This document shows, in pieces, positions 17,322-62,795 of a stretch of 64,000 nucleotides of DNA. The notes under the pieces were generated by a model. The model saw nothing but the letters and a program-made list of their open reading frames with translations. It searched no databases and was not told the origin of the DNA. Position numbers and translations under genes: made by a program. This DNA comes from Chloroflexota bacterium (GTDB taxonomy: Bacteria; Chloroflexota; Anaerolineae; UBA2200), in NCBI GenBank assembly GCA_030607875.1, contig JAUWJD010000004.1, positions 68,605-132,604 on the forward strand, read 5' to 3'. Within the stretch, counting starts at the first letter, position 1. Each line of letters starts with the position of its first letter.

Positions 17322-18521
17322 ATGGCAGCAAAGCAGAACCTCATCCAGCTACTCTGCGATCTGATTGCTCTCCCCAGCGTGAATCCAGAGCACGAAACAC
17401 AGCAAAGCGAAGCGCCATACGGCGAGGGGCGGGTTGCCGACTACGTGCAGCGCTACTTCCAGCCCTTTGGCGTCAGGCTCCAACGGCAGCAAGCTCTCCC
17501 AGGGCGGGAAAGCGTGCTGGTTTGGGTGCCTGGCGCGGATGCTTCTGCCCCGCCCGTCCTGCTCGAAGCGCACACGGACACCGTGGGCGTGGAGGGCATG
17601 GACGATCCGTTCACTCCACGAGTGGAAGGCGGGCGGGTGTACGGCCGAGGGGCCTGTGATACCAAGGCCTCCCTGGCAGCGATGATGTTCGTGCTGCGGC
17701 AGTTGCTGGAGGAAGGCGCTTCGCTACCGCGAGGCCGCGTCTCGCTCCGGCGAGGCTGCGTGCTGGCCGCGACGGCGGATGAGGAGTTTGGTATGACCGG
17801 CGCACGCTGTCTGGTCGAATCGGGGGTGACCTTTTCCGGCGCTATCGTGGGCGAGCCGACCGCGCTGAAGATCGTTGCCGCGCACGATGGACAGATGTAC
17901 CTCAAGATCACAGCCCACGGCAAGGCCGCGCATACCTCGATGCCGCAGCACGGCGTCAATGCCATTTACCTGATGGACGAGGTGATCAACGTGCTGCGCC
18001 GCCGGGCGGATGCGATCTACCCGCAGCGCCAGCATCCCCTCTGTGGTTCGCCCAAGTGGACGGTGTCCATGATCCACGGCGGGACCTCGGAGCACATCGT
18101 GCCCAACCACTGCGAGATCGCCATCGACTTTCGCGTCATCCCCGGCGAGAGCTGCCAGGGGATGCTGGAGGAGGTCAAAAGCTGGCTGGCGCAAGACCTC
18201 GACGCTGCCGCTTTGGAGAGGATTGAGTTCGCAGAGCCTCACAAGACGGAGCCGCCGATGGAGACGCCGAGCGACCACCTGCTGCTGCGGGGCATGCGCG
18301 CGGCGGTTGCCGGCGTCACAGGGGATGCGCAGGTCGTGGGTGTGCCCTACAACACCAATGCCAGCCACTATGCCGCCGCAGGCATTCCCTGCGTCGTCTT
18401 TGGCCCTGGCGACATTGCCCAGGCGCACAGCGTGGACGAGTTCGTGGAAATCTCGCAGGTTGAGGCCGCAGTGGAGATCCTAAAGCGCTTCCTGCTGGAG
18501 AGTGCAGCGTCACTGAGTTAG
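17322..18521 (+). CDS. M20-family metallopeptidase (ArgE/DapE-like deacylase)
   Basis: The 399-aa ORF has LLEAHTDTV, RGACDTK, DEEFG and GPGDIAQAHSVDEF motifs. Confidence 0.85.
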   Translation: MAAKQNLIQLLCDLIALPSVNPEHETQQSEAPYGEGRVADYVQRYFQPFGVRLQRQQALPGRESVLVWVPGADASAPPVLLEAHTDTVGVEGMDDPFTPRVEGGRVYGRGACDTKASLAAMMFVLRQLLEEGASLPRGRVSLRRGCVLAATADEEFGMTGARCLVESGVTFSGAIVGEPTALKIVAAHDGQMYLKITAHGKAAHTSMPQHGVNAIYLMDEVINVLRRRADAIYPQRQHPLCGSPKWTVSMIHGGTSEHIVPNHCEIAIDFRVIPGESCQGMLEEVKSWLAQDLDAAALERIEFAEPHKTEPPMETPSDHLLLRGMRAAVAGVTGDAQVVGVPYNTNASHYAAAGIPCVVFGPGDIAQAHSVDEFVEISQVEAAVEILKRFLLESAASLS

Positions 18522-19017
18522 CTGACCACCAGGGCTGCAAAGTCCCCAACAGACTGGGCAGCGACTGCTATCGCGGCTGCGATAGCATGGAATTGCCCTC
18601 CGGGCCCCAGGTCTCGGCCTAGTCCTGGGTCCAGAACGCATATCTCCTGAGCCCCGGAACGTAGCATAGGGCCTTGCCGCATGTCTCGTCGTAGATCTTG
18701 GCGAAGACAAGGCAGAAGGCGACAGTTCGTCCCGCGCCGACGGGATGGTTCGCCTCGCTACGACGAGGTGCTCGTCCTCTCCCGAGCGCCGCAACGTAGC
18801 ATAGGGCCTTGTGCCCGTCCTCTCCCCCCGAATCAGGACGCCACAAGGGGTTAGGCTACGCTTATTGTCAAATCAGATGGCTCCGTGTCACGTGAACTGC
18901 GCCTCGCAGCAAGAACTAGCCCATCTGGGCCAACTGTGCATCTCATTTCGCTCTGATGTCAGTCGCCGAAACCGACCTTGCAACAGCCCTGCAATCATGT
19001 ACTCATGTACCCGTGAT

Positions 19018-19046
19018 TTGACAAAATAGAACATTTGTGCTATACT
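19018..19046 (+). promoter_or_regulatory. Orphan near-consensus sigma-70-type promoter
   Basis: TTGACA, a 17-nt spacer, then TGcTATACT. It reads toward the M20 fragment and the R-M-like operon. Confidence 0.45.
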
Positions 19047-19286
19047 CCCACCTATGACAACTTGCAGCAAACCAGCCACAATCCCATCCGCCGCCACCAC
19101 CCACTACCCACGATCCTTTTTTTGCCAAACGAACCCATTTTTCACAAATGTACATCGTCCCCCATCACCCAGTTACCCATCAGCCGTACACTGCTGGAGA
19201 CTTGACCCATGACTGTTACCAGTAAACAGCTTGCCGCCAACTGCCGCAACGCCCCGCCCCCCCGATGGCAGAACTCGCAGCCGCTG

Positions 19287-19547
19287 GAGACGCCGACCGA
19301 CCACCTGCTGGTGCAGGGCATGCGCACGGCGACAGCCGACGTTGCAGGGGATGCAGAGGTCGTGGGTGTCCCCTACAACACCGATGCCAGCCACTTTTCT
19401 GCCGCGGGGATTCCCTGCGTCGTCTTTGGCCCCGCCGACATCGCCCAGGCGCACAGCGTGACCGAGTTCGTGGCGATCGAGCAGGTTGAGGCCGCGGTGG
19501 AGATCCTGAAGCGCTTTCTGCTGGAGGGTGCAGGGTCACTGGGTTAG
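19287..19547 (+). pseudogene. Diverged duplicate of the 3' end of the M20 peptidase gene (last ~87 codons only)
   Basis: A hand alignment of 19287-19553 against 18261-18527 gives 233/267 identical positions with no gaps, extending 6 nt past the stop. The fragment sits in a 112-aa ORF (19209-19547) whose first ~26 codons are unrelated. Confidence 0.7.
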
Positions 19548-19670
19548 CTGACCGTGGCTCACTGTTGACTGCTCTGCGAAGGTATGTTATCATAATGGCG
19601 CAGGTGATGTAAAAGACTCTAGCCTTTCATTGTGCCCTCAAGCTGCCAGGTAGACCAGGAGTGTGTCCCT

Positions 19671-21518
19671 ATGGCCAAGAGCCAACCCACGCAGCGAGAA
19701 CTGTTTGAGGTAGCCGAACTCCCCGGCCGGCCGATGCTGCACTGGCACGGCAAGCGCCCCCTGCAGGAAATCCCCTACTACCCTGCCCAACTGCGCGAAC
19801 GCTACGGTGACCTCCCCTCTCCCCCTGGGAGAGGGGCCGGGGGTGAGGGCGAGGGCCGTCCCTGGGCCAACCGCCTCTACTGGGGTGACAATCTCCAGGT
19901 GATGGCCCACCTGCTGCGCGAATTCCGCGGCAAGATCAAGCTGATCTACATTGATCCGCCCTTCGACTCTGGCGCTGACTACCGCAAGCACGTCAAGCTG
20001 CGCGGCACCTCGGTGCAGACCGACCTAGGTGTGCTCGAAGAGCGGCAGTACACCGACATCTGGAGCAACGACCTCTACCTGCAGTACATCTACGAGCGGC
20101 TGATCCTGATGCGGGAATTGCTCACAGAGGATGGGAGTATCCATCTGCATTGCGATTGGCACCGTGTGCATCATCTGCGGTGTGTGATGGACGAGGTCTT
20201 TGGCGCAGACAACTTCAAGAATGAGATTGTGTGGTGGTACTACAACAAGATGCAGGGAAATGTGAAACGCTTCGCGTCAAACCATGACACCGTCTTGTAC
20301 TACGCCAAGTCAGACAGGTTCACGTTCAATCGGCAGACGGAGCCTCGCGACAGGCCAGTTAGGCAACTCAAGCGCGCGTGGGATCCCGAAGAGGGCAAGC
20401 TTGTCAACGTAAGGGACGAGGAAGGAAACATAGTCTACATCGAATCTACTGAGCGAACTGTGGATGATGTGTGGCGCCTATCCATGCTGCAACCGGCCGA
20501 TACTACAGAGAATCTTCGGTTCCCAACTCAAAAGCCTGAGTCGCTCGTTCGTAGAATCGTCTGTGCGTCTTCAAACCCCGGTGACGTTGTCGCTGACTTC
20601 TTTGTCGGCTCGGGGACAACGCTGGCCGTGGCACAGAAACTGGGCCGGCGCTGGATCGGCGCGGACATCAACCTGGGAGCCATCCACACCACGGCCCAGC
20701 GCCTGTCGCGCATCATTGAGGAGCAGCAGGCCCAGGCTCAGCAGTTGGAGTTGCCCGACGGCGACCAGAAACCGGCTTTTTCCGAAGAACCGAGTTTCCA
20801 TCCCGTTTTCGAGCTCTACAACGTCAACCACTATGAAGTGTTCAAGAACGCCGAAGAAGCCCGCGACATCATCCTGCAACTCTACGGCGTACAGCCGCTC
20901 AAGGGCCACCGCTTCTTCGACGGCATCCTGGACGGTCGCTGGGTCAAGGTGGTGGACCTCAACCGCATCTGCTCCAAGCTGGACATCCAGACCATCTTCG
21001 ACAACCTGCCGCCCGACGACACGCGCGGCGTGGTGGTGCTCTGCTCCGGCCACGAGTACGATGTGCCGGAGGTCATCAAACAGCGTAACTTGCTGAACAT
21101 CCCCTTTGAAGTGCGTGACATCCTCACCGACCGCAAGGATGTCATCTTCAAGCGGCTGCCGGAGGCGCAGCTCAAGCTGACCCGCGCCAACGGCCATCTC
21201 ACCCTGACCATCGAGCAGTTCTACTCGCCGCTGCTGCTGCAAAAGCTGTCGCTGGAGGACGAGCCCGAAGCCATCGAAGACTGGCGGCAGATCGTGGCCT
21301 CAGTGCTCATTGACCCCGCCTACGATGGCGAAGTCTTCCACGCCCGCATCACCGATACCCCCGCCCGGCGCGACGAATTGGTGAGCGGTGAGTACACGTG
21401 GGAGGTAAGGGAGTACAGGGAAGGCCAGGTGGCCGTGAAGATTGTGGACGTCCTGGACGAGACGTGGTTTGGAGTGGTAGACTTGCAAAGCGAGCCTGGG
21501 GATTCCCTGGCGGATTAA
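19671..21518 (+). CDS. Type III Mod-like beta-class N6/N4 amino-DNA methyltransferase
   Basis: Motif IV IDPPF (19953-19964) precedes motif I DFFVGSGTT (20595-20621), which is the beta-class order. A variable middle region lies between them, and a long C-terminal extension follows. I chose the start at MAKSQP; the track start is 19632. Confidence 0.85.
   Translation: MAKSQPTQRELFEVAELPGRPMLHWHGKRPLQEIPYYPAQLRERYGDLPSPPGRGAGGEGEGRPWANRLYWGDNLQVMAHLLREFRGKIKLIYIDPPFDSGADYRKHVKLRGTSVQTDLGVLEERQYTDIWSNDLYLQYIYERLILMRELLTEDGSIHLHCDWHRVHHLRCVMDEVFGADNFKNEIVWWYYNKMQGNVKRFASNHDTVLYYAKSDRFTFNRQTEPRDRPVRQLKRAWDPEEGKLVNVRDEEGNIVYIESTERTVDDVWRLSMLQPADTTENLRFPTQKPESLVRRIVCASSNPGDVVADFFVGSGTTLAVAQKLGRRWIGADINLGAIHTTAQRLSRIIEEQQAQAQQLELPDGDQKPAFSEEPSFHPVFELYNVNHYEVFKNAEEARDIILQLYGVQPLKGHRFFDGILDGRWVKVVDLNRICSKLDIQTIFDNLPPDDTRGVVVLCSGHEYDVPEVIKQRNLLNIPFEVRDILTDRKDVIFKRLPEAQLKLTRANGHLTLTIEQFYSPLLLQKLSLEDEPEAIEDWRQIVASVLIDPAYDGEVFHARITDTPARRDELVSGEYTWEVREYREGQVAVKIVDVLDETWFGVVDLQSEPGDSLAD
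19814..19836. repeat. Perfect 9-bp GC-rich hairpin (cccctctcc-N5-ggagagggg) inside the Mod coding sequence
   Basis: I read this directly. It encodes the in-frame Gly/Pro-rich insert LPSPPGRGAGGEGEGRP. Confidence 0.6.
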
Positions 21519-21561
21519 CGAACCATTCTCAGCGATAGTTGGAGCTTGAGGAGGCGGAAAT

Positions 21562-23385
21562 ATGAACTTAGAAGAACAACTCCGAGGTAGATCTTTCGAA
21601 CAGATTCCAATCAGAGTCACTTCTGGGATCCTACTTCACATAGGAGCAGGCATCTACAATTCAGTTGCAGGAGCAATAAAGGAACTTGTGAGTAATTCCT
21701 TTGATGCAGATGCTACTCGTGTCGTCATCTCAACAGACTACCCAAACTTTGAACAGATAAAGGTTGTAGACAATGGGCTTGGTATGACTCCAGGGCATTT
21801 CGCCAAAGCCATGCAATCAATCGGAAGTAGTCTCAAGGGTATACTACAACCAACTGGACTAACACCTATCTTCAAACGTCCCATAATCGGACACTTGGGC
21901 ATTGGGCTGATGGCACTGACTCAGGTGTGCGGAGAGGCTACTATCGAGTCACAGATTCCTGACTCGGATACCAAATTCGTTGCTCAACTGGATTTCTCTC
22001 AATTCAGACAGCGCAAGCAGAGGCAGACTGAAGCCGCAAAGGTGGACATTTTCCGCGAGTTAGCGACGGCCTACGGTGGACTTGAGGAGATGAAACAGCG
22101 TCTGGAAAGCCTGGACCCTGAATCCGATGTATATATTGAGATGTTGGCACAGTATGAATTGGCAAGTAGAGCGGAAATGGTTTTCAGAGAACGGGGCATG
22201 GAAGACCCAGAGAAGGAGCACTTGGGCTATTGCGTGCTTTTTCCTGATCTGCCAGCCGTTCCGAATCAGCAGGGCACTACTATTACTCTGACCAAGATTG
22301 ATGAAGGCGTCCGAGCTTCACTGCTAGATAAGGGCAGATCGCCAGATGCAATACCTCAGCATTACAAAGACAGAGGTATGACGTGGAGTGAATACCGTGA
22401 TGAGGTAAACAATTGGCCTTGGGATGAGCTTTGCAAGCGACTGCGGATGAAAACAAGTCAACTAGCCTATCAGTCATTGCCGCGATATCATCAATTTCTC
22501 TGGGAACTTTCCAGTATGATACCTGTACAATACCTGGAAGAAGGCCCTGTTCTGCTGGAGACTGATCTGCTAAGGCGGAAGAAAAAGGAACTCGATCGCT
22601 TCAGTTTCTCCGTGCTCGTGGACAATCGCCCTTTGTTGAAGCCTATTCTGTTGCCATCAGGCGCTGTGGCTCGTGAAGACAAACTGGAGCGAGGGTATGA
22701 TTACTATCTAGAAACTTTCAGTCAACAAGATGAGACGGTTGATGAGGAGCTTCTGAAATACGAGGGTTACATATTCTGGCAAAGAAAGCAGGTAGAGCCT
22801 AGCGCCGTGCGAGGCATTCAAGTCTACATCCGTAATGTTGGTATTGGGCTTTATGACCAAACACTGATGGGTTTTTCCGTAGTGAACCCAACATCCAGAG
22901 CAGGGCAGATGTCGGGAGAGATATATGTTGAAGAAGGGCTTGAGCGAGCCTTGAGCGTTGATCGAAACAGTTTTCGCGAGACGGATGCTCACTACATTGC
23001 CCTACAGGAGCATTTGTGGGAACTAATTGGATCAGCGACCCGTGAGGACGGCATCATGGGTATGTCTGTGGAGGCCTACTGGAAACGCAGAGACCGGCGC
23101 GAAGAACAAGCCCTTGAAGAGCATATCCAGACACTCGCGGAGCAGGTGCAGCAAGCTAGTGGCGGCAAGTTCGTTCTCGAGTTTTCTGATCAGGAAAAGC
23201 CGCAGCCATATGTCGTAAGAGATAACCAGATAACTGTGTACGATGGCTCATCCAGTTGGCCCCGCTCAAGTTCGGAACGTCGTTTATACCAGCAGTTGTT
23301 AGCTCCGATAAAGGCGGCTATCGCAACGGGCGCGTCCGCTGAACAAGTGCTGGATCTTCTGGAAGAGATTCTGTTGAAGCAATAG
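21562..23385 (+). CDS. GHKL-superfamily (HATPase_c_3 / MORC- or MutL-like) ATPase
   Basis: Bergerat-fold motifs are present: N-box ELVSNSFDA (21682-21705), DNGLGM (21769-21786) and GHLGIGLMA. A GAGGAGG RBS precedes the gene. The product is 607 aa. Confidence 0.8.
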   Translation: MNLEEQLRGRSFEQIPIRVTSGILLHIGAGIYNSVAGAIKELVSNSFDADATRVVISTDYPNFEQIKVVDNGLGMTPGHFAKAMQSIGSSLKGILQPTGLTPIFKRPIIGHLGIGLMALTQVCGEATIESQIPDSDTKFVAQLDFSQFRQRKQRQTEAAKVDIFRELATAYGGLEEMKQRLESLDPESDVYIEMLAQYELASRAEMVFRERGMEDPEKEHLGYCVLFPDLPAVPNQQGTTITLTKIDEGVRASLLDKGRSPDAIPQHYKDRGMTWSEYRDEVNNWPWDELCKRLRMKTSQLAYQSLPRYHQFLWELSSMIPVQYLEEGPVLLETDLLRRKKKELDRFSFSVLVDNRPLLKPILLPSGAVAREDKLERGYDYYLETFSQQDETVDEELLKYEGYIFWQRKQVEPSAVRGIQVYIRNVGIGLYDQTLMGFSVVNPTSRAGQMSGEIYVEEGLERALSVDRNSFRETDAHYIALQEHLWELIGSATREDGIMGMSVEAYWKRRDRREEQALEEHIQTLAEQVQQASGGKFVLEFSDQEKPQPYVVRDNQITVYDGSSSWPRSSSERRLYQQLLAPIKAAIATGASAEQVLDLLEEILLKQ

Positions 23386-23398
23386 GGAGCGTGCAACG

Positions 23399-24490
23399 AT
23401 GCCTGGAAGGTCTAAAAGGGAAGAGCGTAAGCAAAGGCTCGAGGAGGAAGGAGTTCCAGGACGAATTCGCGAACAGGCTGAGCGTCAAAAGGAACTCTTC
23501 TTCTTGGAGCGGGATCCTATCAAGCAGTATGTTCGTCACTTTGGTTGGCTTCAGATTGTCCAGGACTATGTGCAACGACGGCGAGACGATGGTGTAAACC
23601 GACCTTTAAGGTATCTCACTTTGCCTGGACCCAACGCCACGGATGTAGGGGTGCTGTGGCGCGCGGGCCTACTTGTTAGAACGGATGAAGGGTTTCCGGA
23701 CCTGGTAATCTGTGACGAGAAGTTCGCCGATGAGGCTTTGATGGTTTTAGGCGCGGTTGACGGCGTCAGCAGACAATCGCTCATCTATGCAGTAAAGAAA
23801 GACTTGGTCCCTTATTTCCCCTTCGATGTCATCAATTTGGATATGTACGGAGCCGTGGTCACCGGTAGCCCCACACGGCGCAGAGCTCTGCGGACACTGA
23901 TAGCTGTTCGACAGATCATCTATCTGCAAAGAGGGCAAAGCTTCCTTCTTCTTCTGACCTGTTCAACCGATGATCTCTCGGCCCACACTTACTTGGAAGA
24001 GTGCCTCTTGGGAAACTTCAATGAAGATGATTTCCGAAAGGCTTATCTTGAACGATATGGAAGGCTCGATTCCAATCCTTTCCAAAATGACTACAGAACC
24101 TTTGTGGGCCTGGTTCTCCCAAAAGCCATTGGAAGGATGGCTAGGAAACGTGGCTACAAAATAGCCGAACACTTTGCAGCCGAGTACGATAGAAGAAGCC
24201 ACCATATATTGTGCCATGGTTTTGAGCTGGAGCCTTTGGGGAGAAAGAAGCCTGAGAAGAAGTACGAAGCTCACTTCGAAAACGTCGAGTGGGATGAGCT
24301 AAATGAAGAACTAACTGGTTCAACTCGGGACCTTGCGAACAAGGCTTATCTGGAGTTTATTCCGACCCTTGTACAGCGGGATCTACTTGATGTTCAAAAT
24401 ATCTTGCGGTCGAATCCCGACTTGGAGATCCGGATGAAGCAAGAAGCAAAATCATATGTCGGGTGGGAAAAATCGAATGAGCCAGAGTGA
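23399..24490 (+). CDS. Hypothetical protein (363 aa) in the R-M-like operon; no family recognised
   Basis: The ORF has a coding-like composition. It starts 14 nt after the GHKL gene and overlaps the next gene. Local patterns YLTLPGPNATD and FDVINLDMYG weakly recall a Rossmann/MTase-like fold. Confidence 0.6.
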   Translation: MPGRSKREERKQRLEEEGVPGRIREQAERQKELFFLERDPIKQYVRHFGWLQIVQDYVQRRRDDGVNRPLRYLTLPGPNATDVGVLWRAGLLVRTDEGFPDLVICDEKFADEALMVLGAVDGVSRQSLIYAVKKDLVPYFPFDVINLDMYGAVVTGSPTRRRALRTLIAVRQIIYLQRGQSFLLLLTCSTDDLSAHTYLEECLLGNFNEDDFRKAYLERYGRLDSNPFQNDYRTFVGLVLPKAIGRMARKRGYKIAEHFAAEYDRRSHHILCHGFELEPLGRKKPEKKYEAHFENVEWDELNEELTGSTRDLANKAYLEFIPTLVQRDLLDVQNILRSNPDLEIRMKQEAKSYVGWEKSNEPE

Positions 24491-25832
24491 GAATTTGACA
24501 ACGAGTCTAATTGACAGGCTGCTTCTCAAAGATGCTCGTCTCTTGACGGGAGTTCTTTCCTCCACTGATCCTCGTGTGGATGTCATAATCACCTCCCCGC
24601 CTTACTGGGATTTGAAGGACTACAAAATACCCAACCAGATTGGGTACGGCCAGACCAAAGGCAAATACCTTGACGATATGGAGAAAGTCCTGAGGGATTG
24701 TCTTCTAGCAACGAAGCCAACTGGCTCCTTGTGGCTTGTCGTTGACACCTATCGAGAAGACGGCGAATTGCAGCTTCTTCCCTTGGAACTGGCTGAGCGT
24801 GCCCGCCAAGCGGGCTGGAAGCTCCGCGATCTAATCGTGTGGGACAAGCAGCATAGCGTTCCTTGGCATAGAAAGGGACAACTACGAAATATCTCCGAAT
24901 TCATTCTTTTCATGACCAAGTCCGATGACTACAAATACTATGTGGAACGTATCAAGACCCTGGATGAGATTAGCAAATGGTGGGTAGATTTCCCGGAGCG
25001 GTTCAATCCGAAGGGCAAGACGCCGACAAACATATGGAGCATTCCGATGAGACCTCGGGGGACATGGCGCAAGCCATCCAAACTCGATCACTGCTGCTCA
25101 TTCCCCACCGCGCTAGTGGCACGGATCATCGAACTCACGACCGACCCCGGTGATCTAGTGATGGACCCTTTTGCTGGATCAGGCGTTGTGCTGGCTCAGG
25201 CTGCTACGATGGGGCGCCACTACATAGGATTCGAGGTCAATGAGGAATATGTCCAAATGTTTGAAGAAACAGTCAAAGACGAGGTGGCCGCTGAGTGGAA
25301 GGAGATGAGGGCCTGGAGAAAAAGCCAGGCAGATGCCAAAGTTGATTTCGAGCAGACGATTATGAAATTAAGAGCATTGAAGTACGCGCGTCAAGTAACC
25401 AGGCCCTTCCTCGAAGTGCTCAAGCCAGAACAACAAGCCCAGATTTGCGCCATTCTATGCACAGCGTCAATCCCTAGTGAACATCAACGTGGTCGTCCCT
25501 TTGATGTCAAGGTCTTGATAGTGGTGGATCGAAGCCTTCCTGAGTTCGAGACAGCTCTTGAAAAAGCCAGGGCTAGGGCGGCACGACCGCCGCTGACTCA
25601 ATATGGCATACGCTCAGATATACAAATTGCTACCTATTCGGATCTAAGGTGCCAAGGTGACCTTGTCGATCATACGTTATACCTGTACCCCAAATACAAG
25701 TCCCGCAAGTGCACAGCCAGTGGCTCGTTGCAAAGCTGGTTTGAAACGGGACAACTGAAAGAGTTAGGCGGGGATGGCAAGGTGCCAATGCTTGCAAATG
25801 TCGCTGTAGACGTTGCATGGGTATTGGAGTAA
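24477..25832 (+). CDS. Beta-class N4-cytosine/N6-adenine DNA methyltransferase
   Basis: Motif IV TSPPY (24594-24605) precedes motif I DPFAGSGVV (25164-25190). An alternative start is 24456. Either start overlaps the upstream gene. Confidence 0.85.
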   Translation: MSQSENLTTSLIDRLLLKDARLLTGVLSSTDPRVDVIITSPPYWDLKDYKIPNQIGYGQTKGKYLDDMEKVLRDCLLATKPTGSLWLVVDTYREDGELQLLPLELAERARQAGWKLRDLIVWDKQHSVPWHRKGQLRNISEFILFMTKSDDYKYYVERIKTLDEISKWWVDFPERFNPKGKTPTNIWSIPMRPRGTWRKPSKLDHCCSFPTALVARIIELTTDPGDLVMDPFAGSGVVLAQAATMGRHYIGFEVNEEYVQMFEETVKDEVAAEWKEMRAWRKSQADAKVDFEQTIMKLRALKYARQVTRPFLEVLKPEQQAQICAILCTASIPSEHQRGRPFDVKVLIVVDRSLPEFETALEKARARAARPPLTQYGIRSDIQIATYSDLRCQGDLVDHTLYLYPKYKSRKCTASGSLQSWFETGQLKELGGDGKVPMLANVAVDVAWVLE

Positions 25833-25839
25833 TAGAGTA

Positions 25840-28374
25840 ATGACCGAGCCGGTGGCTGATTTTCAAGCTCTCCTATCAGCGGCTTTCGCTGTTGAACGTC
25901 GTGAGCCTAAAGACCCGACCCTGCGCTACGGCGGCTCTGGCCGCAGCGAGGACAAACTGCGCGAGTTCACCAGCACGCCCTTCTACCATGCACTGCTGCC
26001 GGAGACGCAGAACATCCTGCGTCACATCCGGCGCGTGGAGTGGCTCCGTCCGCCGCAGGTGGATGCCCTGGAACTGTACATCTACCTAAAAGAGGTGCGC
26101 GGCAACCCCACCACCCAGCAACTGTACCGCGAAGTGCTGCTGGGGGACATCGAGGGCAAATCGGCCCTGGAGCTGACCGCTGCCGAGTTGGAGCGGCTCA
26201 AGGCGGCCAAGGCCCAGATTGAGGCCATCGAACAGACCCTGATGGGCGTGGACTATCCCAACACCATCTACTCCCTGGCCATGGGTACCGGCAAGACCAT
26301 CCTGGTCGCGGCGATGATCTTTTACGAGTTCGTGCTCTCCTGGAAGCACCCCGACGGTCCCCGCTTCGCCAGGAATGCCCTGGTCTCTGCCCCGGACCTG
26401 ACCGTCATCGATTCCCTGCGCGAGATACAGGCACTCGACCGCTCGCGTATCCTGCCTGGAGAGTACGTCAACTTCCTCGATACCAACCTAAAGTTCCACT
26501 ACCTGGCCGACTCGGGCGCTGAACTGACCGTGCTGCCCGGTTCTGCCTATAACATCATCGTCTCCAACGTGCAAAAGATCATCCTGCGCCGCTACCGCCG
26601 CCCCAGCGATGCCCGCACGCTGTTCGGTGATACGCGCCGCGCCGAAGCTGAACTGGTCTCTAACCGGCGCTTGCAGCGCCTGCAGGAACTGGACAACCTG
26701 GCTATCTTCGTGGACGAAGCCCACCACTCCTTCGGCCGCTCCCTGGAGGGCAACCTGAAGCGCGTGCGAGAGACCATCAACCACCTGCACACGCGGACAC
26801 CGCTGGTCGGCTGCGTCAACCTGACCGGCACCCCCTACGTGAACAACCGCATGTTGCCTGAGGTGGTCTACCACTACCCCCTGGCTGACTCTATCCAGGA
26901 CGGTCACCTCAAAGAGGTGCGCTTCTACGACTATAGCCGGGTCAAGACCGAGGAGTTCGTTCGCGACGTGGTGGGCCGCTTCTGGGAAGCCTACGGGGAG
27001 CAGCGGAGCGAGGGGCTGCTGCCCAAAATGGCCGTTTACTGCGCCACCATCCGCGAACTGGAGAGTGAATTCCGCCCTTTGCTGGAGAAGGTGCTGGTTG
27101 AGCTAGGCATCCCTACGGCCAAGATTCTGGTCAACCACAGCAAGGTAGATGACGACGCGGTGCGCCGCTTCCGCGAGCTGGACACGCCGGATTCACCCTA
27201 CCAGTTCATCCTGCTGGTGGGTAAGGGCACCGAGGGCTGGAACTGCCGCAGCCTTTTCAGCACGGCCCTCTACCGCCGGCCCCACAGCCGCGTCTTTCTG
27301 CTGCAATCCTCGATGCGCTGCCTGCGCTCCATCGGCGACATGCCCCAGACGGCCAGTATCTTTCTGTCCACCGAGAACCGCAACGTGCTGGAGAAGGAGA
27401 TCGCGGCTAACCTGGGCACCAGTATGGATGCATTGCAACGGCAGAAGAACCGACGGCGCATCACCATCAAGGTCCTCAAAGCCAAGAAAGTGCGCCTCAA
27501 GAAGCCCATTACCCGCATCGTGCAGCGCCGCCGAGCAAAGATCGGCTCTCTGGCCTTTGGGCTGGACAGCGTTGACCTGAGCCTGTACGAGCCAGTGGTC
27601 ACCTTGACCAAGGGTCTGGAGATGCGCACTGCAGAGGCCGAGAAGGTGTACCGGCTTCAGCGCTGCTACAACTCGTACTCGCTGGTGGAGGAGGCGGCGC
27701 GTTTCACCGGCCTGCCTTGCCTGGAGGTGGAGCGCATCCTGCGCCAGTCCGACGATGGGATTGATAGTGTGCTGGACTATGTGAATCGCGAGAACGCCCT
27801 GCTCCACGACGTTGTGATTCCTGCAATCCAGGATGCCCTGTTCGAATACGAGGAAAAGAGCGGCTCGAGCGAGGAGGAGGTGGCACTGGCGGCCAATTTC
27901 CCTGTAGAGCGGTACGTCAGCGGGGATCAAGAAAGGTTGGTGATGCGGCCAGACGGTGGCCGTGAGCGCAGCTACCACCTGGATCATTACATCTTCGACT
28001 CTGGCGAGGAACGAAGGCTCTTCGAGATGTTGCTGACCCACGAACGGGTGGAGGAGGTCTACTTCACCGGCGGCATCACCGACCCCGCGCACAACGAATT
28101 CTACATCGAATACTACGATGGGCAGGCGGGTCGCTGGCGCAGGTACTTCCCTGATTTCTTCCTCAAGTTTGCCGACGACGGCTGGATGGTGATCGAAGTA
28201 AAACGCCAGGACCAGACCGAGCATCCTAACGTCAAGGCCAAGGATGACGCCGCTCGCCAGGTCTTTGAAACGCTGAACGGCATCCTCTACCACGTCAAGC
28301 CCGACGACCAGATCCGTCGGGGCGAGATCCACGACATCTTTCAACGTGCTGTGCCTCCGCCAGCGGGTGCGTGA
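25840..28374 (+). CDS. Type III Res-like SF2 DEAH helicase with a C-terminal PD-(D/E)xK-type nuclease motif
   Basis: Helicase motif I AMGTGKT (26278-26298), motif II DEAH (26713-26724) and motif III LTGTPY are present. The C-terminal YFPDFF...WMVIEVKRQD (28144-28206) is nuclease-like. I chose the start at MTEPVA after a GGAG. Confidence 0.85.
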   Translation: MTEPVADFQALLSAAFAVERREPKDPTLRYGGSGRSEDKLREFTSTPFYHALLPETQNILRHIRRVEWLRPPQVDALELYIYLKEVRGNPTTQQLYREVLLGDIEGKSALELTAAELERLKAAKAQIEAIEQTLMGVDYPNTIYSLAMGTGKTILVAAMIFYEFVLSWKHPDGPRFARNALVSAPDLTVIDSLREIQALDRSRILPGEYVNFLDTNLKFHYLADSGAELTVLPGSAYNIIVSNVQKIILRRYRRPSDARTLFGDTRRAEAELVSNRRLQRLQELDNLAIFVDEAHHSFGRSLEGNLKRVRETINHLHTRTPLVGCVNLTGTPYVNNRMLPEVVYHYPLADSIQDGHLKEVRFYDYSRVKTEEFVRDVVGRFWEAYGEQRSEGLLPKMAVYCATIRELESEFRPLLEKVLVELGIPTAKILVNHSKVDDDAVRRFRELDTPDSPYQFILLVGKGTEGWNCRSLFSTALYRRPHSRVFLLQSSMRCLRSIGDMPQTASIFLSTENRNVLEKEIAANLGTSMDALQRQKNRRRITIKVLKAKKVRLKKPITRIVQRRRAKIGSLAFGLDSVDLSLYEPVVTLTKGLEMRTAEAEKVYRLQRCYNSYSLVEEAARFTGLPCLEVERILRQSDDGIDSVLDYVNRENALLHDVVIPAIQDALFEYEEKSGSSEEEVALAANFPVERYVSGDQERLVMRPDGGRERSYHLDHYIFDSGEERRLFEMLLTHERVEEVYFTGGITDPAHNEFYIEYYDGQAGRWRRYFPDFFLKFADDGWMVIEVKRQDQTEHPNVKAKDDAARQVFETLNGILYHVKPDDQIRRGEIHDIFQRAVPPPAGA

Positions 28375-60408: not shown

Positions 60409-62088
60409 TCATTGTGGGTCGGGTGCCCTCACGAAATAGTCCTCCCACCCTGTTGCTTTGTCAAGGGTGGGCGCTTTGATGTTCCCCAGCCTTTGTCCTC
60501 GTGATCGGCGGGCTTTCAGGTAGGCCTCCATCGCACCCTTGGCTACTGGAAAGACTTTAGGATGGCCCAACTGGCCAAGTTTGCGGCAATAGTTGTAGTG
60601 AAAACTCCGACGGAGATTCTGGTCAAGATCCGCACATAAATCAGTCAGCACTTGAGTGCATTGCTGATCAGGAGGGAGCTCAAGATATAGTGTGTAGCGG
60701 AAACCCCTTGCTGCATCGTCAGGTGCCAGCATGGCAAATACTGGCGATAGCCCGTGTTGGTCAAAGATATCGTGCAGTATTCTGACTACAAAGTGCTCGT
60801 TGAGTTTTTCTCCGAACCAGTCTGAAACGTGGTCGGCTTTGCCAAGAAACCGAAGGCAAGGAGCTTGTTCCATGTAGTCAACCACCTCCACGATATCCTG
60901 CAATTGGTACCTATAGAAACCACCGCCTGTAGTTACCACCACAGCATAGGTCTGTCCCCTATCCAGTTCATGGGCTAGTTTGGGCTGCTCAGACAAGACT
61001 TCGTAGGTCTGACTATTCACTGGCAGGAACTCAAGAAAGTGAGCTGTGACGGCGAGAACGGCTCCAGTGACCCCTGCGACTGGAAAAGAGACAAACGCTT
61101 CCGTAGCGATCAAGCCCTTGCCTTGGAATTGAACATTGGGGAATTGTGCCTTCAGCGTTTGGGCATAGCGAGCAGCGGGGCCATCCATCCAGCAACTGAT
61201 CAAACGAAGACCTGGCCAAATAGCCTGATAGTTGGATGGCTGGATCACAGCGAGTGCTTTTGCCCGCTGGGGATCGGGGGGCAGTTGATGAAGCAAGGTT
61301 TGATGCAGACAAGAATCTAGTCCGCTTGGCGATGTTAGCGTTCCATGCGCGATATCGCCTATCAGGGCTTCCCACCATTCGGACAGAGGCGCGAGCAACA
61401 GGCTGAGGAATGTCGGATTCCACACGGAGATGATGCGCAGGTCTGGTTGACACAGCAAGAAGAGCAAGGTTACGTAGCGAAAACTTGTTACATCCGGAAT
61501 GTATTTAACCTCATTAGGAACGGCGAGGGCTGAGTCGACCAAGTACTTGCCTAGAGAGCCAAGGTATGCACTGTCTTCTTCAAAACCTATTGGGATACCA
61601 CTGGAGGTGAATCGTCGACCGTCGGTTAGAGGCGTAATTGACCAGTAAGCCGGTCCACGCTTAAGATGAGGATCGTGCCGAAAAAGGCTGTATATCCAGC
61701 AAGCGATGCCTCTTTGAAACTCGGATCTCAGCTGCACGGTGTACGGTATCAGTTTTGAAGCCGCCGTTGATCCACTGGAGATCTCAAGCATGAGCACAGG
61801 TGAAGCAGTCAGAACTCTTTGCCTTCCCTGGCTGATTGCCTCGATGGCTTTCGTGTAGTTGTCATAGGTTGTTAGTGGGACGGATCTCTGATAGGCGTCG
61901 ACGGAGGTTATTGAGGCAAACTCGAAGCGGCTCCCGTAGTCTGTATCCCGGTTTTTCTCCAGATAGCTCATTAGGAGCTTGCACTGTACCTCCGCAACGT
62001 CCGTTGTGGCGCGCACAAATTGATGCCAGGCAGGCAAACAGGTAGCTTGCCAAAGGTTGTTTGCCAGTCTTGGCCCTACGCCTCTCAT
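60409..62088 (-). CDS. GH3 (auxin-responsive promoter) family acyl-adenylate-forming enzyme
   Basis: The 559-aa ORF has the N-terminal pattern YGSRFEF...YQRSVPLTTYDNY...SSGSTAASKLIPYT typical of bacterial GH3 proteins. Confidence 0.8.
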   Translation of the reverse strand: MRGVGPRLANNLWQATCLPAWHQFVRATTDVAEVQCKLLMSYLEKNRDTDYGSRFEFASITSVDAYQRSVPLTTYDNYTKAIEAISQGRQRVLTASPVLMLEISSGSTAASKLIPYTVQLRSEFQRGIACWIYSLFRHDPHLKRGPAYWSITPLTDGRRFTSSGIPIGFEEDSAYLGSLGKYLVDSALAVPNEVKYIPDVTSFRYVTLLFLLCQPDLRIISVWNPTFLSLLLAPLSEWWEALIGDIAHGTLTSPSGLDSCLHQTLLHQLPPDPQRAKALAVIQPSNYQAIWPGLRLISCWMDGPAARYAQTLKAQFPNVQFQGKGLIATEAFVSFPVAGVTGAVLAVTAHFLEFLPVNSQTYEVLSEQPKLAHELDRGQTYAVVVTTGGGFYRYQLQDIVEVVDYMEQAPCLRFLGKADHVSDWFGEKLNEHFVVRILHDIFDQHGLSPVFAMLAPDDAARGFRYTLYLELPPDQQCTQVLTDLCADLDQNLRRSFHYNYCRKLGQLGHPKVFPVAKGAMEAYLKARRSRGQRLGNIKAPTLDKATGWEDYFVRAPDPQ

Positions 62089-62795
62089 CGGATCATCCGC
62101 AGCCCAGCAGGAGTAAAGTTATTGAGATGAATGCGTGTCAGACAGACCAACTCGTCGCCCTGACCATGTCCAGGATTCCTGGCAACAAAGAAGGCAACGT
62201 GTGGATCCTTTAGACGTCTTTCGGTGATTTCAGCCACTCCCTGTTTCAGGGGGGTAGCACCGGCGGCAAAACGAACGATGCCTGACTCAGGGTAGTATTG
62301 CGATCCAAAACGCTCGCGAGCTAGGTGATGAATCACCTCTTGAATCTGAGAAGGAGTTGGTCGGTCGTATCTGGGATAGTACTCCTTGAAAAAGGTTGTG
62401 AGAAAGCGGTAGGTTTTGTAGCCGGATGAGATGAGGAGCCAATACAGTGGTTTCGGCAGTTGCTCCCCCATTCTTAGAACAAGCTCACCCCAGGCACGAG
62501 GGAGTTCAGACGTGCCCCAATAGGCCGGGCGGATGATCGTATCGCCAGAGTAGACCACACCTACCTCTTTGCCCTCTACAAGGGATGTGTAGAAAGCAAG
62601 CGTGGAGAAGCCGTGGATGGATTTGGACGTTGGATCTCGCAGAACAATCACCCAGTTCTTGTCGTCCAGATCTCTCCGGAATGTCTCTGGGGTGGTGTTT
62701 TCATAGTAATCTTGGAACACGTCGAACATGTTCTGGACATCATCATCGGTTAGATCGGACTTGGGTAGTGACTCGCCTTTCAATAGTTGGGCCAT
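62085..62795 (-). CDS. Hypothetical protein (236 aa), possibly an acyltransferase-like fold
   Basis: It is tightly packed between the radical SAM gene (3-nt gap) and the GH3 gene (4-nt overlap). No diagnostic motif was recognised. Confidence 0.55.
   Translation of the reverse strand: MAQLLKGESLPKSDLTDDDVQNMFDVFQDYYENTTPETFRRDLDDKNWVIVLRDPTSKSIHGFSTLAFYTSLVEGKEVGVVYSGDTIIRPAYWGTSELPRAWGELVLRMGEQLPKPLYWLLISSGYKTYRFLTTFFKEYYPRYDRPTPSQIQEVIHHLARERFGSQYYPESGIVRFAAGATPLKQGVAEITERRLKDPHVAFFVARNPGHGQGDELVCLTRIHLNNFTPAGLRMIR

What the first reader, a model, noticed from the sequence alone, without database searches (positions are those of the whole stretch)
21519..25839. Low-GC three-gene cassette (GHKL ATPase - orphan - MTase) sits exactly between a GC-matched mod/res pair
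I hand-counted GC on 60-nt lines. Inside 21.6-25.4 kb the values were about 42-50%, with one line at 57%. Lines in mod (20041), res (26041, 27001) and flanking chromosome (30001) gave about 57-65%. The switch points coincide with the mod stop (21518) and the res start (about 25840-25900). Type III mod and res genes are normally adjacent or overlapping. The simplest reading is that a foreign 4.3-kb module inserted between, or was recruited into, a resident Type III system. The module could be a self-contained unit of MTase plus GHKL effector plus partner. Alternatively it could now work with Res as a hybrid.
Basis: seen in the sequence. Interest (0 to 1): 0.75.

Follow-up and report, generated by a model that had tools for sequence, protein, structure and literature searches.

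The report
Defence cassette nested inside restriction operon
A foreign, low-GC three-gene unit (a MutL/MORC-like ATPase, a partner of unknown function and a DNA methylase) sits between the two genes of a Type III-like restriction system, and in related bacteria the same gap holds quite different defence genes, so the gap behaves as a swap-in slot.

Summary
Window 21519-25839 has GC 0.496, against 0.590±0.015 for equal-sized windows (z = -6). GC3 is 0.49-0.56, against 0.78 in mod and 0.80 in res. The steps fall at the mod stop and the res start.

The insertion reading is supported:
- In 16 of 18 distant mod-res relatives the two genes abut or overlap.
- The cassette (GHKL ATPase, PP_RS20740-family protein, N4/N6 methylase) occurs without mod or res in several other genomes, including an Acidobacteriota genome.
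- Every close Chloroflexota relative in which both genes are visible carries other cargo in the same gap: HicBA, MNT-HEPN, TIR-SIR2 with CHAT, AAA ATPase with subtilase, or zinc-ribbon proteins. An EVE-domain protein fills it in a more distant group. Cargo is always co-oriented and lower in GC than the frame.

Homology between loci stops at the mod stop and the res start. Cargo modules recur as units and stack. Duplicated res 5' fragments and mod 3' relics point to recombination through the frame genes.

The ATPase and its partner form a conserved pair that sits beside varied DNA-modification genes elsewhere. I therefore read the cassette as an autonomous restriction-modification-like module. 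No nuclease was identified in it.

[quoted passage not shown] This is a new variant.

The parts
19565..19593 (+). Sigma-70-like promoter match (TTGACT-17-TATCAT with TG) 39 nt upstream of mod. It is a candidate promoter for the whole five-gene operon.
   Evidence: Consensus scan (10 of 12 matches). No convincing intrinsic terminator on the + strand between mod and the end of res. This is a pattern match only, not evidence of function.
19632..21518 (+). mod: Type III-like beta-class N6-adenine DNA methyltransferase (motif IV DPPF). It forms the left frame of the cargo slot.
   Evidence: Pfam N6_N4_Mtase E = 4e-48. PADLOC MTase_III E = 2e-68. GC3 0.777. Sequence. Orthologues at 36-86% identity lie next to res orthologues in 30+ loci.
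21430..21518 (+). Last ~88 nt of mod. This segment travels with the cassette in two loci that lack the rest of mod.
   Evidence: blastn homology of L002 and L154 to the window begins at 21430 and 21436. tblastn finds the last 34 codons of mod directly upstream of GHKL in L154.
21519..25839 (+). Low-GC cargo cassette (GHKL ATPase, PP_RS20740-family protein, methyltransferase) embedded between mod and res.
   Evidence: GC 0.496, z = -6.1; tetranucleotide z = 13.6. Collinear at 72-89% nucleotide identity with cassettes in L002, L003, L150, L152 and L154 in other genomic contexts.
21562..23385 (+). GHKL (Bergerat-fold) ATPase, 607 aa, MutL/MORC/Hsp90-like. The motifs are intact: ELVSNSFDAD (N box), DNGLGM (G1), GHLGIGLMA (G2). 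A transducer-like middle region and a helical C-terminus follow.
   Evidence: Pfam HATPase_c_3 E = 3e-15. NCBIfam gives weak MutL and BbrUII/HgiDII N-terminal hits, far below cut-off. AlphaFold2 model pLDDT 79.7. Foldseek top hits are TRAP1/Hsp90, MORC2/3/4 and SMCHD1. A profile search of PDB sequences hits the MutL/PMS2 N-terminal domain. Sequence.
23399..24490 (+). orf363: PP_RS20740-family protein (Pfam PF28273) with a predicted Rossmann, SAM-methyltransferase-like fold. Function unknown. It is the constant partner of the GHKL ATPase and the fastest-evolving gene of the cassette.
   Evidence: Precomputed PF28273 hits. NCBIfam NF047698 gives 56.9 bits against a cut-off of 200. No PADLOC hit. 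AlphaFold2 pLDDT 87. The listed Foldseek hits are nearly all SAM-dependent methyltransferases, but weak (best E = 1e-3: Trm1, DNMT3B). Conserved motifs: LTLPG, ICD, FPFDVINLD, QRGQSFLLL. Not a paralogue of MT2 or mod. Mean pairwise identity among cassette copies is 61%, against 81% for GHKL and 76% for MT2.
24456..25832 (+). MT2: beta-class N4/N6 DNA methyltransferase, Type II-like. Motif IV is SPPY and motif I is DPFAGSG. It is the predicted protective methylase of the cassette.
   Evidence: Pfam N6_N4_Mtase E = 3e-45. Best PADLOC hits are MTase_II models. Sequence. It overlaps orf363 by 35 nt and ends 7 nt before the res ATG.
25840..28374 (+). res: SF2 helicase (GTGKT, DEAH, TGTP) fused to a C-terminal PD-(D/E)xK nuclease (FPDF...IEVK, TnsA-N-like). 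It forms the right frame of the cargo slot.
   Evidence: Pfam ResIII E = 6e-7 and Tn7_TnsA-like_N E = 1.5e-7. Weak PADLOC REase_III hit. NCBIfam BPTD_3080 restriction endonuclease at 57 bits against a cut-off of 800. GC3 0.80. Sequence. 1883 homologues.
25840..25905 (+). First ~22 codons of res. They are homologous at nucleotide level only to the res genes that also follow this cassette, so the recombination junction lies inside the res 5' end.
   Evidence: blastn of L081, L084, L086 and L116 against the window starts at 25895-25912, whereas L085 aligns continuously from 24529 to 28341. Alignment of res starts.

Best explanation
The five genes are two systems, one nested in the other.

The frame is a Type III-like restriction-modification pair, Mod (an m6A-type methylase) and Res (a helicase-nuclease), in an Anaerolineae-like Chloroflexota genome. 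In this lineage the few bases between the mod stop and the res start act as a cargo slot. Horizontally acquired, lower-GC defence or toxin-antitoxin modules are found there. They are always co-oriented and tightly packed, so they are probably read through from the mod promoter (inferred).

Cargo content differs in almost every relative. Modules recur as units and can stack. Exchange most likely runs through homologous recombination in the conserved mod 3' and res 5' ends. This step is inferred from three things: the mod 3' relics, the duplicated res 5' fragments, and the lack of any integrase or of room for recombination sites.

The cargo in this window is a self-contained, restriction-modification-like module:
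- MT2 (motif SPPY, probably m4C) marks the host DNA.
- The dimeric GHKL ATPase, with its obligatory PP_RS20740-family partner, is the component that acts on unmarked DNA. This is inferred from gene context only.
- No nuclease is recognisable. The action may be ATP-driven clamping or compaction of DNA, as with MORC. It may use a cryptic nuclease. In this locus it may hand over to Res.
For: Composition. The step is sharp at both boundaries.

Ancestral adjacency. In 16 of 18 loci with 35-48% identical mod and res, the extrapolated gap is -195 to -21 nt. L100, from the 55%-identity group, has a 62-nt gap.

Variable slot. In loci with res at 78-88% identity the gap holds the following:
- HicB-HicA in L089 (0.5 kb)
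- a double zinc-ribbon protein in L104 (0.75 kb)
- unknown ORFs in L125
- MNT-HEPN, then a res' fragment, then a zinc-ribbon gene in L081 (1.4 kb)
- an AAA ATPase plus an S8 subtilase in L116 (3.5 kb)
- MNT-HEPN plus TIR-SIR2, CHAT and orf290 in L086 (4.6 kb)
In the 55%-identity group L093-L098 the gap holds an EVE-domain protein.

Boundaries. Inter-locus homology ends at the mod stop codon and begins at the res start codon. Cargo GC is below frame GC in every one of these close loci; in the 55% group (L093) the EVE gene is no lower in GC than its frame.

Modularity. L155 stacks ParE, HicBA (84-86% identical to L089), MNT-HEPN (81-86% to L081), an intact GHKL cassette, and a res'(aa 1-73)-zinc-ribbon unit whose zinc-ribbon gene is 81% identical to that of L081.

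Cassette autonomy.
- It occurs without mod or res in L003, L004 (Acidobacteriota), L150/151 (between DUF499 and DUF1156 genes), L152/153, L156/157 and L158/159. In L154 and L155 it is intact with no complete res.
- Its GC is 0.47-0.53 in hosts whose flanking DNA ranges from 0.56 to 0.68.

Core pair. Of 63 GHKL relatives, 44 have an orf363 relative directly downstream. In other phyla the pair sits beside C5 methylases, DndC/DndD-like genes, B12-radical-SAM enzymes and SNF2/ResIII helicases.

Literature. GHKL (MORC/paraMORC) ATPases were predicted to be components of RM systems together with Type III-like helicase-nucleases (PMC2292703). [quoted passage not shown] PrrC lies within a Type Ic locus (PMC12707154).
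Against: - No nuclease or other effector domain was found in the cassette, so restriction by the GHKL/partner pair is inference from context alone.
- The cassette is next to this res family in three lineages (window, L085, L155) and next to another MTase-ResIII pair in L152. That is also what a functional link to a helicase-nuclease would produce.
- L002 and L154 carry a mod 3' relic. Some of the 'standalone' copies therefore descend from embedded ones and are not independent evidence of autonomy.
- The MT2|res junction is shared by the window and L085, although their res genes are only 78% identical and their MT2 genes only 64%. The association is therefore old or has recurred, and yet the GC step has not decayed. 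Simple recent transfer does not explain this.
- The sample of close loci is small (about 11), comes from metagenome contigs, and is often cut at contig ends.
- Transcription as one operon was not tested.
Confidence: 0.72

Rival explanations
1. Integrated five-gene system. The GHKL ATPase, its partner and the second methylase are accessory subunits of the Type III-like enzyme, a MORC-type RM system as predicted by Iyer, Abhiman and Aravind. The GHKL clamp would loop or hand DNA to the Res helicase-nuclease, which supplies the only nuclease. The low GC would only reflect the older foreign origin of these parts.
For: - The genes are tightly packed and co-oriented: gaps of 43, 13, -35 and 7 nt, with no internal terminator-like site of note.
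- No nuclease is found in the cassette.
- The literature predicts MORC/paraMORC ATPases working with Rad25-like Type III helicase-nuclease fusions and methylases.
- The cassette-res junction recurs in L085 and L155.
- Another ResIII helicase with a methylase lies beside the cassette in L152.
- Distant GHKL-partner pairs sit next to SNF2/ResIII helicases.
Against: - The cassette is intact without any res in L003, L004, L150, L154, L155 and L158.
- Every other member of the mod-res family sampled lacks it, and its closest relatives hold unrelated cargo in the same gap.
- The cassette brings its own methylase, which an accessory subunit of Mod/Res would not need.
Confidence: 0.18
2. The cassette is not an immune module. 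It would be an epigenetic or repair unit: a methylase with a MutL-like ATPase and a methyltransferase-fold partner, acting in methyl-directed repair or gene regulation. It would sit in the slot by hitch-hiking.
For: By sequence, the GHKL N-terminal domain is closest to MutL/PMS2. No effector nuclease was found. In L158/159 the cassette lies among housekeeping-looking genes rather than in a defence island. The one published phenotype for the family namesake, PP_RS20740, concerns furfural tolerance and not phage.
Against: - Most contexts are defence islands or defence operons: TIR-STAND, caspase-TPR, toxin-antitoxin pairs, DUF499/DUF1156, other RM systems.
- The distribution is patchy and laterally mobile, with foreign composition in every host.
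- The partners of the core pair are interchangeable DNA-modification enzymes, including Dnd-like genes. That is typical of modification-dependent immunity.
Confidence: 0.08
3. Artefact. The cassette was joined to mod and res by metagenome mis-assembly, or the low GC is a constraint of the encoded proteins rather than a sign of foreign origin.
For: The window appears to come from a metagenome-assembled genome. The only near-identical second copy (L001, 99.993% over 14.25 kb) may derive from the same reads.
Against: Independent contigs from other samples show the same junctions: MT2 to res in L085, and mod ... cassette to the res 5' fragment in L155. The GC difference is concentrated at third codon positions (GC3 0.49-0.56 against 0.78-0.80), while GC at the first and second positions is similar. 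This is therefore not an amino-acid effect.
Confidence: 0.02

Closest known systems
Genes embedded within multi-gene defence systems ('guilt by embedding', Payne et al. 2024, bioRxiv 10.1101/2024.01.29.577857), and PrrC inside the Type Ic EcoprrI locus
   Same: A complete, unrelated defence or toxin module is nested between the genes of a restriction-type system. The same module also occurs non-embedded elsewhere. Embedded content varies between related host systems.
   Different: [quoted passage not shown] Here the host is a Type III-like two-gene system. The slot is a single point between the mod stop and the res start. Every close relative sampled is occupied. Modules stack, and fragments of the frame genes (res', mod') mark the joints. 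PrrC is a guardian that senses its host enzyme; nothing here shows such a dependence.
MORC/paraMORC GHKL ATPases of restriction-modification systems (Iyer, Abhiman and Aravind 2008, PMC2292703)
   Same: A GHKL ATPase with a transducer-like domain is encoded with DNA methylases and, in this locus, with a Rad25/ResIII-type helicase fused to a restriction-endonuclease-fold nuclease. It is laterally mobile and predicted to manipulate DNA in a methylation-aware system.
   Different: I could not assign the protein to a named paraMORC family. The constant partner here is the PP_RS20740-family protein, a methyltransferase-like fold that I did not find in the parts of that paper I read. The helicase-nuclease is not a conserved neighbour of this GHKL family.
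Canonical Type III restriction-modification (EcoP1I/EcoP15I type)
   Same: Gene order mod then res. Mod is a beta-class N6A methylase with a strong MTase_III profile hit. Res has an N-terminal SF2 helicase and a C-terminal PD-(D/E)xK nuclease. The genes overlap or abut in most family members.
   Different: Res is highly divergent: only weak ResIII and REase_III hits, a TnsA-N-like nuclease domain, and no sequence match to any solved structure. In this lineage the genes are separated by 0.5-4.6 kb of cargo.
BbrUII/HgiDII-family restriction enzymes (NCBIfam NF050001)
   Same: An N-terminal GHKL ATPase domain in a protein encoded beside a DNA methylase.
   Different: Only the first ~140 residues match (65.5 bits against a cut-off of 550). 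The rest of the protein is unrelated, and a separate partner gene is present.
Integron cassette arrays and defence hotspots flanked by conserved genes
   Same: Co-oriented, promoter-distal, interchangeable and stackable modules sit between two conserved anchors.
   Different: No integrase was found among the neighbouring genes annotated. The gaps between genes are often only 4-13 nt, which leaves no room for attC-like sites. The anchors are the two halves of one functional system, not housekeeping genes.

Membership tests
Type III restriction-modification system (mod/res frame) | Mod subunit: beta-class N6-adenine methyltransferase with a DPPY/F catalytic motif and an FxGxG SAM motif | tested here: met
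   Pfam PF01555 E = 4e-48. PADLOC MTase_III PDLC03633 E = 2e-68 over residues 79-457. DPPF and FFVGSG are present in the sequence.
Type III restriction-modification system (mod/res frame) | Res subunit: SF2 helicase motifs plus a PD-(D/E)xK endonuclease domain in one polypeptide | tested here: met
   GTGKT, DEAH, TGTP and FPDF...IEVK are readable in the sequence. Pfam ResIII E = 6e-7 and Tn7_TnsA-like_N E = 1.5e-7.
Type III restriction-modification system (mod/res frame) | Sequence-level membership of Res in the characterised Type III Res family | tested here: inconclusive
   PADLOC REase_III hits only residues 267-367 (E = 6e-8). NCBIfam BPTD_3080 restriction endonuclease gives 57 bits against a cut-off of 800. 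A profile of 12 homologues finds no PDB chain at E <= 0.01.
Type III restriction-modification system (mod/res frame) | mod immediately upstream of res, in one operon | tested here: not met
   In this window the genes are 4.3 kb apart. The feature is met in 16 of 18 distant relatives, where the genes overlap or abut.
Type III restriction-modification system (mod/res frame) | ATP-dependent cleavage that needs unmethylated, inversely oriented sites; hemimethylation by Mod | not testable with these tools
   This is biochemistry.
MORC/paraMORC GHKL ATPases of RM systems | Bergerat-fold ATP-binding motifs (N box, G1, G2) intact | tested here: met
   E41, N45, D48, D70, G72, G74, G110, G113 and G115 are invariant in 18 homologues. 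Pfam HATPase_c_3 E = 3e-15.
MORC/paraMORC GHKL ATPases of RM systems | S5-fold transducer domain following the GHKL domain | tested here: inconclusive
   The whole-model Foldseek search hits Hsp90/TRAP1, MORC2/3/4 and SMCHD1 with probability 1.0 but TM-scores of about 0.3. The domain could not be searched on its own.
MORC/paraMORC GHKL ATPases of RM systems | Conserved neighbourhood with DNA methylases, SFII helicases and nucleases | tested here: met
   Modification enzymes (N4/N6 methylase, C5 methylase, Dnd-like genes, B12-radical SAM) or helicases lie beside the pair in the loci annotated. No specific helicase or nuclease is constant.
PP_RS20740 family (NCBIfam NF047698 / Pfam PF28273) | Score above the curated cut-off of the family model | tested here: inconclusive
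   NCBIfam equivalog: 56.9 bits against a cut-off of 200, so it is not a member at equivalog level. Precomputed Pfam PF28273 hits are recorded for this protein and for 70 of its 71 homologues.
BbrUII/HgiDII restriction enzyme family (NF050001) | Full-length match above cut-off | tested here: not met
   65.5 bits against a cut-off of 550. Only residues 23-156 match.
Embedded defence systems (Payne et al. 2024) | Cargo genes nested between the genes of a known multi-gene defence system, with homologues of the cargo also found non-embedded | tested here: met
   The cassette lies between mod and res here. It occurs non-embedded in at least six other contexts.
Known or candidate defence systems in PADLOC-DB v2.0.0 | Profile match of the cassette-specific proteins | tested here: not met
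   orf363 has no hit. GHKL has only two weak N-terminal REase_II hits (E = 1e-5 and 3e-3). MT2 hits generic MTase_II models.
Integron-type cassette platform | Integrase gene and attC/attI recombination sites at cassette borders | tested here: not met
   No integrase is found among the annotated neighbours of the locus. Cassette borders are 4-43 nt long and share no motif between loci. No flanking repeats were found.

The most novel reading that the evidence does not exclude
This mod-res family would be a dedicated, integrase-free carrier for immune cargo. Modules would enter directly upstream of the res start codon by homologous (Campbell-type) recombination of excised circles that carry a short res 5' or mod 3' segment. 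That would leave res' and mod' fragments as joints, would allow stacking, and would place all cargo under the mod promoter. The addictive RM pair on either side would hold the cargo in the genome. In this reading the GHKL/PP_RS20740/methylase cassette is an undescribed, nuclease-free (MORC-like DNA-clamping) restriction-modification system.
Probability: 0.3. Interest if true: 0.72.

Novelty: new variant of a known kind. Interest (0 to 1): 0.58.

Why it matters
Nesting of defence genes inside other defence operons is a recent and productive idea for finding new immune systems. [quoted passage not shown] This locus extends it in three ways.

First, it shows the pattern in a Type III-like system, in an uncultured Chloroflexota lineage. 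Occupancy and turnover of a single point slot are unusually high, and the joints (mod' and res' fragments) hint at how cargo is exchanged without a dedicated recombinase.

Second, it nominates a three-gene candidate system that is absent from PADLOC v2. Its constant core is a MutL/MORC-like ATPase plus a protein with a methyltransferase-like fold. That core is paired in different phyla with N4/N6 methylases, C5 methylases, Dnd-like genes or B12-radical-SAM enzymes. If it restricts DNA without a nuclease, it would be a bacterial counterpart of MORC-type silencing. That origin was proposed in 2008 and has not, to my knowledge, been tested.

Third, the other cargo found in the slot is a short list of further candidates: AAA ATPase with subtilase, TIR-SIR2 with CHAT, and several unknown ORFs.

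Tried and rejected
- Phage origin. A scan of IMG/VR with the GHKL alignment found no relative.
- Plasmid origin. tblastn of GHKL against PLSDB gave only weak N-terminal hits, and orf363 gave none.
- RNA genes or tRNA as an integration target. There are no Rfam or tRNA hits in the window.
- Flanking direct or inverted repeats around the cassette. Only chance-level short matches were found.
- Relics of mod or res inside the window's cassette. None were found.
- orf363 as a diverged copy of MT2 or mod. Rejected by hhalign.
- Sequence matches of res or orf363 to solved structures. None were found.
- A link to the MADS system. The preprint does not mention a GHKL, HATPase or MutL component, so I dropped the lead.
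- The only paper that names PP_RS20740 concerns furfural tolerance and says nothing on mechanism.
- I suspected that the cassettes in L154 and L155 were decaying, because the gene calls were short. Translation showed full-length intact ORFs. Only L156/157 has a frameshifted GHKL.
- A hypervariable target-recognition segment in orf363. The protein is uniformly faster-evolving rather than locally variable.
- Finding a nuclease in the GHKL C-terminal half. The whole-model fold search gave only Hsp90/MORC-type matches, and the domain could not be searched separately.

Full report
**Observation**

The interval 21519-25839 is a sharply bounded compositional island.
- GC in 500-nt windows is 0.46-0.53 inside and 0.55-0.66 outside.
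- The whole interval has GC 0.496. Equal-sized windows elsewhere in the 64 kb average 0.5895 with sd 0.0154 and a minimum of 0.539, which gives z = -6.1. Its tetranucleotide usage is 13.6 sd from the background.
- The difference sits at synonymous sites. GC3 is 0.488, 0.519 and 0.556 for the three inner genes, against 0.776 for mod and 0.799 for res. GC at the first and second codon positions is similar. Mod and res in fact have among the highest GC3 values of the 43 long ORFs in the window.
All genes are on the + strand: mod 19632-21518, GHKL ATPase 21562-23385, orf363 23399-24490, a second methylase MT2 24456-25832, and res from ATG 25840 (or TTG 25813) to 28374.
- The spacers are 43, 13, -35 and 7 nt. 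A sigma-70-like promoter match lies at 19565-19593, and no convincing terminator lies inside the block.

**What the genes are**

Mod is a beta-class N6_N4 methylase. It has a strong Type III Mod profile match and a DPPF motif.

Res combines SF2 helicase motifs (GTGKT, DEAH, TGTP) with a C-terminal PD-(D/E)xK nuclease (FPDF...IEVK) that Pfam sees as TnsA-N-like. It is Type III-like in architecture but divergent. Family hits are weak and no solved structure matches by sequence.

The GHKL protein has an intact Bergerat ATP site. These residues are invariant in 18 homologues.
- By sequence it resembles MutL/PMS2 N-terminal domains.
- As a model (pLDDT 79.7) it resembles Hsp90/TRAP1, MORC2-4 and SMCHD1.

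orf363 belongs to the uncharacterised PP_RS20740 family (Pfam PF28273).
- Its model (pLDDT 87) has a Rossmann fold. The listed structural neighbours are nearly all SAM-dependent methyltransferases, but only weakly (best E = 1e-3).
- Conserved motifs are LTLPG, ICD and FPFDVINLD.
- It is not a paralogue of MT2 or mod.
- About 800 clusters at 50% identity match its profile.

MT2 is a Type II-like beta-class methylase with an SPPY motif. From general knowledge of this class, that motif suggests N4-cytosine specificity.

No nuclease domain was detected in the cassette.

**Is the cassette an insertion?**

Three lines of comparative evidence say yes.

First, the mod-res pair is a widespread two-gene family. 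A metagenome scan with a res alignment returned 64 loci. In 16 of the 18 loci where both genes are 35-48% identical to the window's, they overlap or abut. The other two have gaps of about 300 nt. One locus from the 55%-identity group, L100, also has adjacent genes.

Second, the cassette exists without mod or res. These copies include:
- L003 (Anaerolineae; 81, 60 and 81% amino-acid identity for the three proteins)
- L004 (Acidobacteriota; 55, 39 and 56%)
- L150/151, where it lies between DUF499 and DUF1156 genes of another methylase-based system
- L152/153, where it follows an unrelated methylase-ResIII pair
- L156/157 and L158/159

In each of these loci profiled except L004, whose whole locus has GC 0.50, the cassette keeps GC 0.47-0.53 while the flanking DNA is 0.56-0.68.

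In relatives whose res is 78-88% identical, the space between mod and res holds the following:

| Locus | Gap | Cargo |
|---|---|---|
| L089 | 0.5 kb | HicB-HicA |
| L104 | 0.75 kb | double zinc-ribbon protein |
| L125 | 1.1 kb | two unknown ORFs |
| L081-83 | 1.4 kb | MNT-HEPN, a 65-codon duplicate of the res N-terminus, and a zinc-ribbon gene |
| L116 | 3.5 kb | AAA ATPase plus S8 subtilase |
| L086 | 4.6 kb | MNT-HEPN plus TIR-SIR2, CHAT and an unknown gene |

L087 and L088 have a TPR-CHAT protein and a HEAT-repeat protein, each followed by an unknown ORF, directly upstream of res; mod was not found in the ~3.3 kb held upstream of res. In a 55%-identity group (L093-L098) the gap holds an EVE-domain protein. 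All cargo is co-oriented with the frame, and in the close (78-88%) loci it has lower GC than the frame; the EVE gene in L093 does not.

Nucleotide alignments show that homology between loci ends at the mod stop codon and starts again at the res start codon.

**How cargo moves (inferred)**

Cargo modules behave as discrete units. L155 carries the following in one array, before the chromosomal flank resumes:
- the 3' end of mod
- a ParE pair
- HicBA, 84-86% identical to that of L089
- MNT-HEPN, 81-86% identical to that of L081
- an intact GHKL cassette
- a res fragment (residues 1-73) followed by a zinc-ribbon gene 81% identical to that of L081

The arrangement res'-zinc-ribbon-res in L081 is what a single crossover between the chromosomal res 5' end and a circle carrying a short res 5' segment would produce.

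L154 and L002 keep the last ~30 codons of mod directly upstream of GHKL, although mod itself is absent.

In the window, the first ~22 codons of res are homologous at nucleotide level only to L085, the other contig in which res follows this cassette.

There is no integrase among the neighbours. Several joints are only 4-13 nt long, which leaves no room for attC-like sites. Recombination through the conserved ends of mod and res is therefore the most economical mechanism. It is an inference from scars, not a demonstration.

**One unexplained point**

The MT2|res junction is shared by the window and L085. Their res proteins are 78% identical, but their MT2 proteins are only 64% identical. The window's MT2 is closer (72-84%) to the copies in L002, L003, L150, L152 and L154, all of which lack res (two of them keep a mod 3' relic).

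Either the cassette has been replaced by recombination with the mobile pool, or it entered the same site twice. Either way the GC step has persisted. Recent transfer alone does not explain that.

**What the cassette does (inferred)**

The GHKL ATPase and the PP_RS20740-family protein form the conserved core. Of 63 GHKL relatives from one-genome-per-species contigs, 44 have an orf363 relative directly downstream. These span many bacterial phyla and archaea. MT2-like methylases accompany only the closest copies.

Elsewhere the pair sits beside other genes:
- C5 methylases (L009, L018)
- B12-binding radical-SAM enzymes (L005, L020, L023, L050)
- DndC/DndD-like genes (L033, L015)
- SNF2/ResIII helicases (L006, L013, L015, L039)

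A constant pair with interchangeable DNA-modification partners is the signature of the restricting half of a modification-dependent immune system. It also matches the 2008 prediction that MORC/paraMORC ATPases work in RM systems.

I therefore read the cassette as an autonomous RM-like module. MT2 marks self DNA. The GHKL dimer and its partner act on unmarked DNA. The chemistry of that action is unknown, because no nuclease was found.

The rival reading, that in this locus the pair uses Res as its nuclease, remains possible. It is weakened by the intact res-less copies.

**Comparison with the known**

Nesting of defence genes within defence systems is established. PrrC sits inside a Type Ic locus. 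[quoted passage not shown] Type III systems were not among the host systems analysed in the text I read, and the cassette proteins have no meaningful PADLOC v2 match.

The finding is thus a new variant of a known phenomenon, plus a candidate system of a kind that was predicted but has not been characterised. It is not categorically new.

**Limits**

- All comparative loci are metagenome or MAG contigs, and many are cut near the genes of interest.
- The set of close relatives is small (about 11).
- The near-identical copy L001 may come from the same reads as the window.
- Operon structure, methylation specificity and any defence phenotype are untested.

Noticed in passing
window 18251-18527 and 19277-19553: The last 277 nt of the M20 peptidase gene (17322-18521) are repeated at 87% identity directly upstream of mod, giving a truncated M20 C-terminal ORF at 19209-19547. 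This looks like a scar of integration or recombination and may mark the left border of the whole mod...res island.
   Followed up: partly
window 18528-19276: About 750 nt of apparently non-coding DNA lies between the two M20 copies. It has strongly negative GC skew (-0.30) and an internal 34-nt direct repeat (18643-18676 and 18778-18811, 91% identical). It also has a near-consensus promoter match at 19018-19046. There is no Rfam or tRNA hit.
   Followed up: partly
L084, L154, L155 (downstream flanks); L081, L085, window: The mod-res block sits in a different chromosomal neighbourhood in each relative. It is followed by HAD-X-PfkB in L084, L154 and L155, by an ATP-cone PRK gene in L081, and by DUF72-PRTase in the window. 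The framed system itself therefore moves. At the HAD-PfkB site, res is complete in L084, reduced to a 73-codon fragment in L155 and absent in L154.
   Followed up: partly
L116 2353-5796; L086 2990-6585; L087 72-3299: Other cargo in the same slot may be uncharacterised immune modules: an AAA ATPase (341 aa) with an S8 subtilase (800 aa); TIR-SIR2 (519 aa) with a CHAT protease (383 aa) and an unknown 290-aa protein; and TPR-CHAT (823 aa) with an unknown 247-aa protein.
   Followed up: no
L013 8466-12513 and L056 8457-12506: In two Dehalococcoidia genomes, two GHKL ATPase genes lie in tandem before the PP_RS20740-like gene. An SNF2 helicase and two unknown genes precede them. This is a larger variant of the core pair.
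   Followed up: no
L150 904-12520 (also L151): Here the GHKL cassette, preceded by an MNT gene, lies between a DUF499 gene and a DUF1156 methylase gene. It thus appears to be embedded in a second, unrelated methylase-based system. The GC step is equally sharp (0.48-0.54 against 0.64-0.70).
   Followed up: partly
window 60412-62795 (- strand): This is a second, milder low-GC stretch (GC3 0.54-0.56). It encodes a GH3-family adenylating enzyme and an unknown 236-aa protein, next to a radical-SAM gene.
   Followed up: partly
L156 2396-4211 (also L157): This cassette copy has a frameshift near codon 88 of the GHKL gene, inside the ATP-binding domain. The partner and methylase genes remain intact.
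   Followed up: partly
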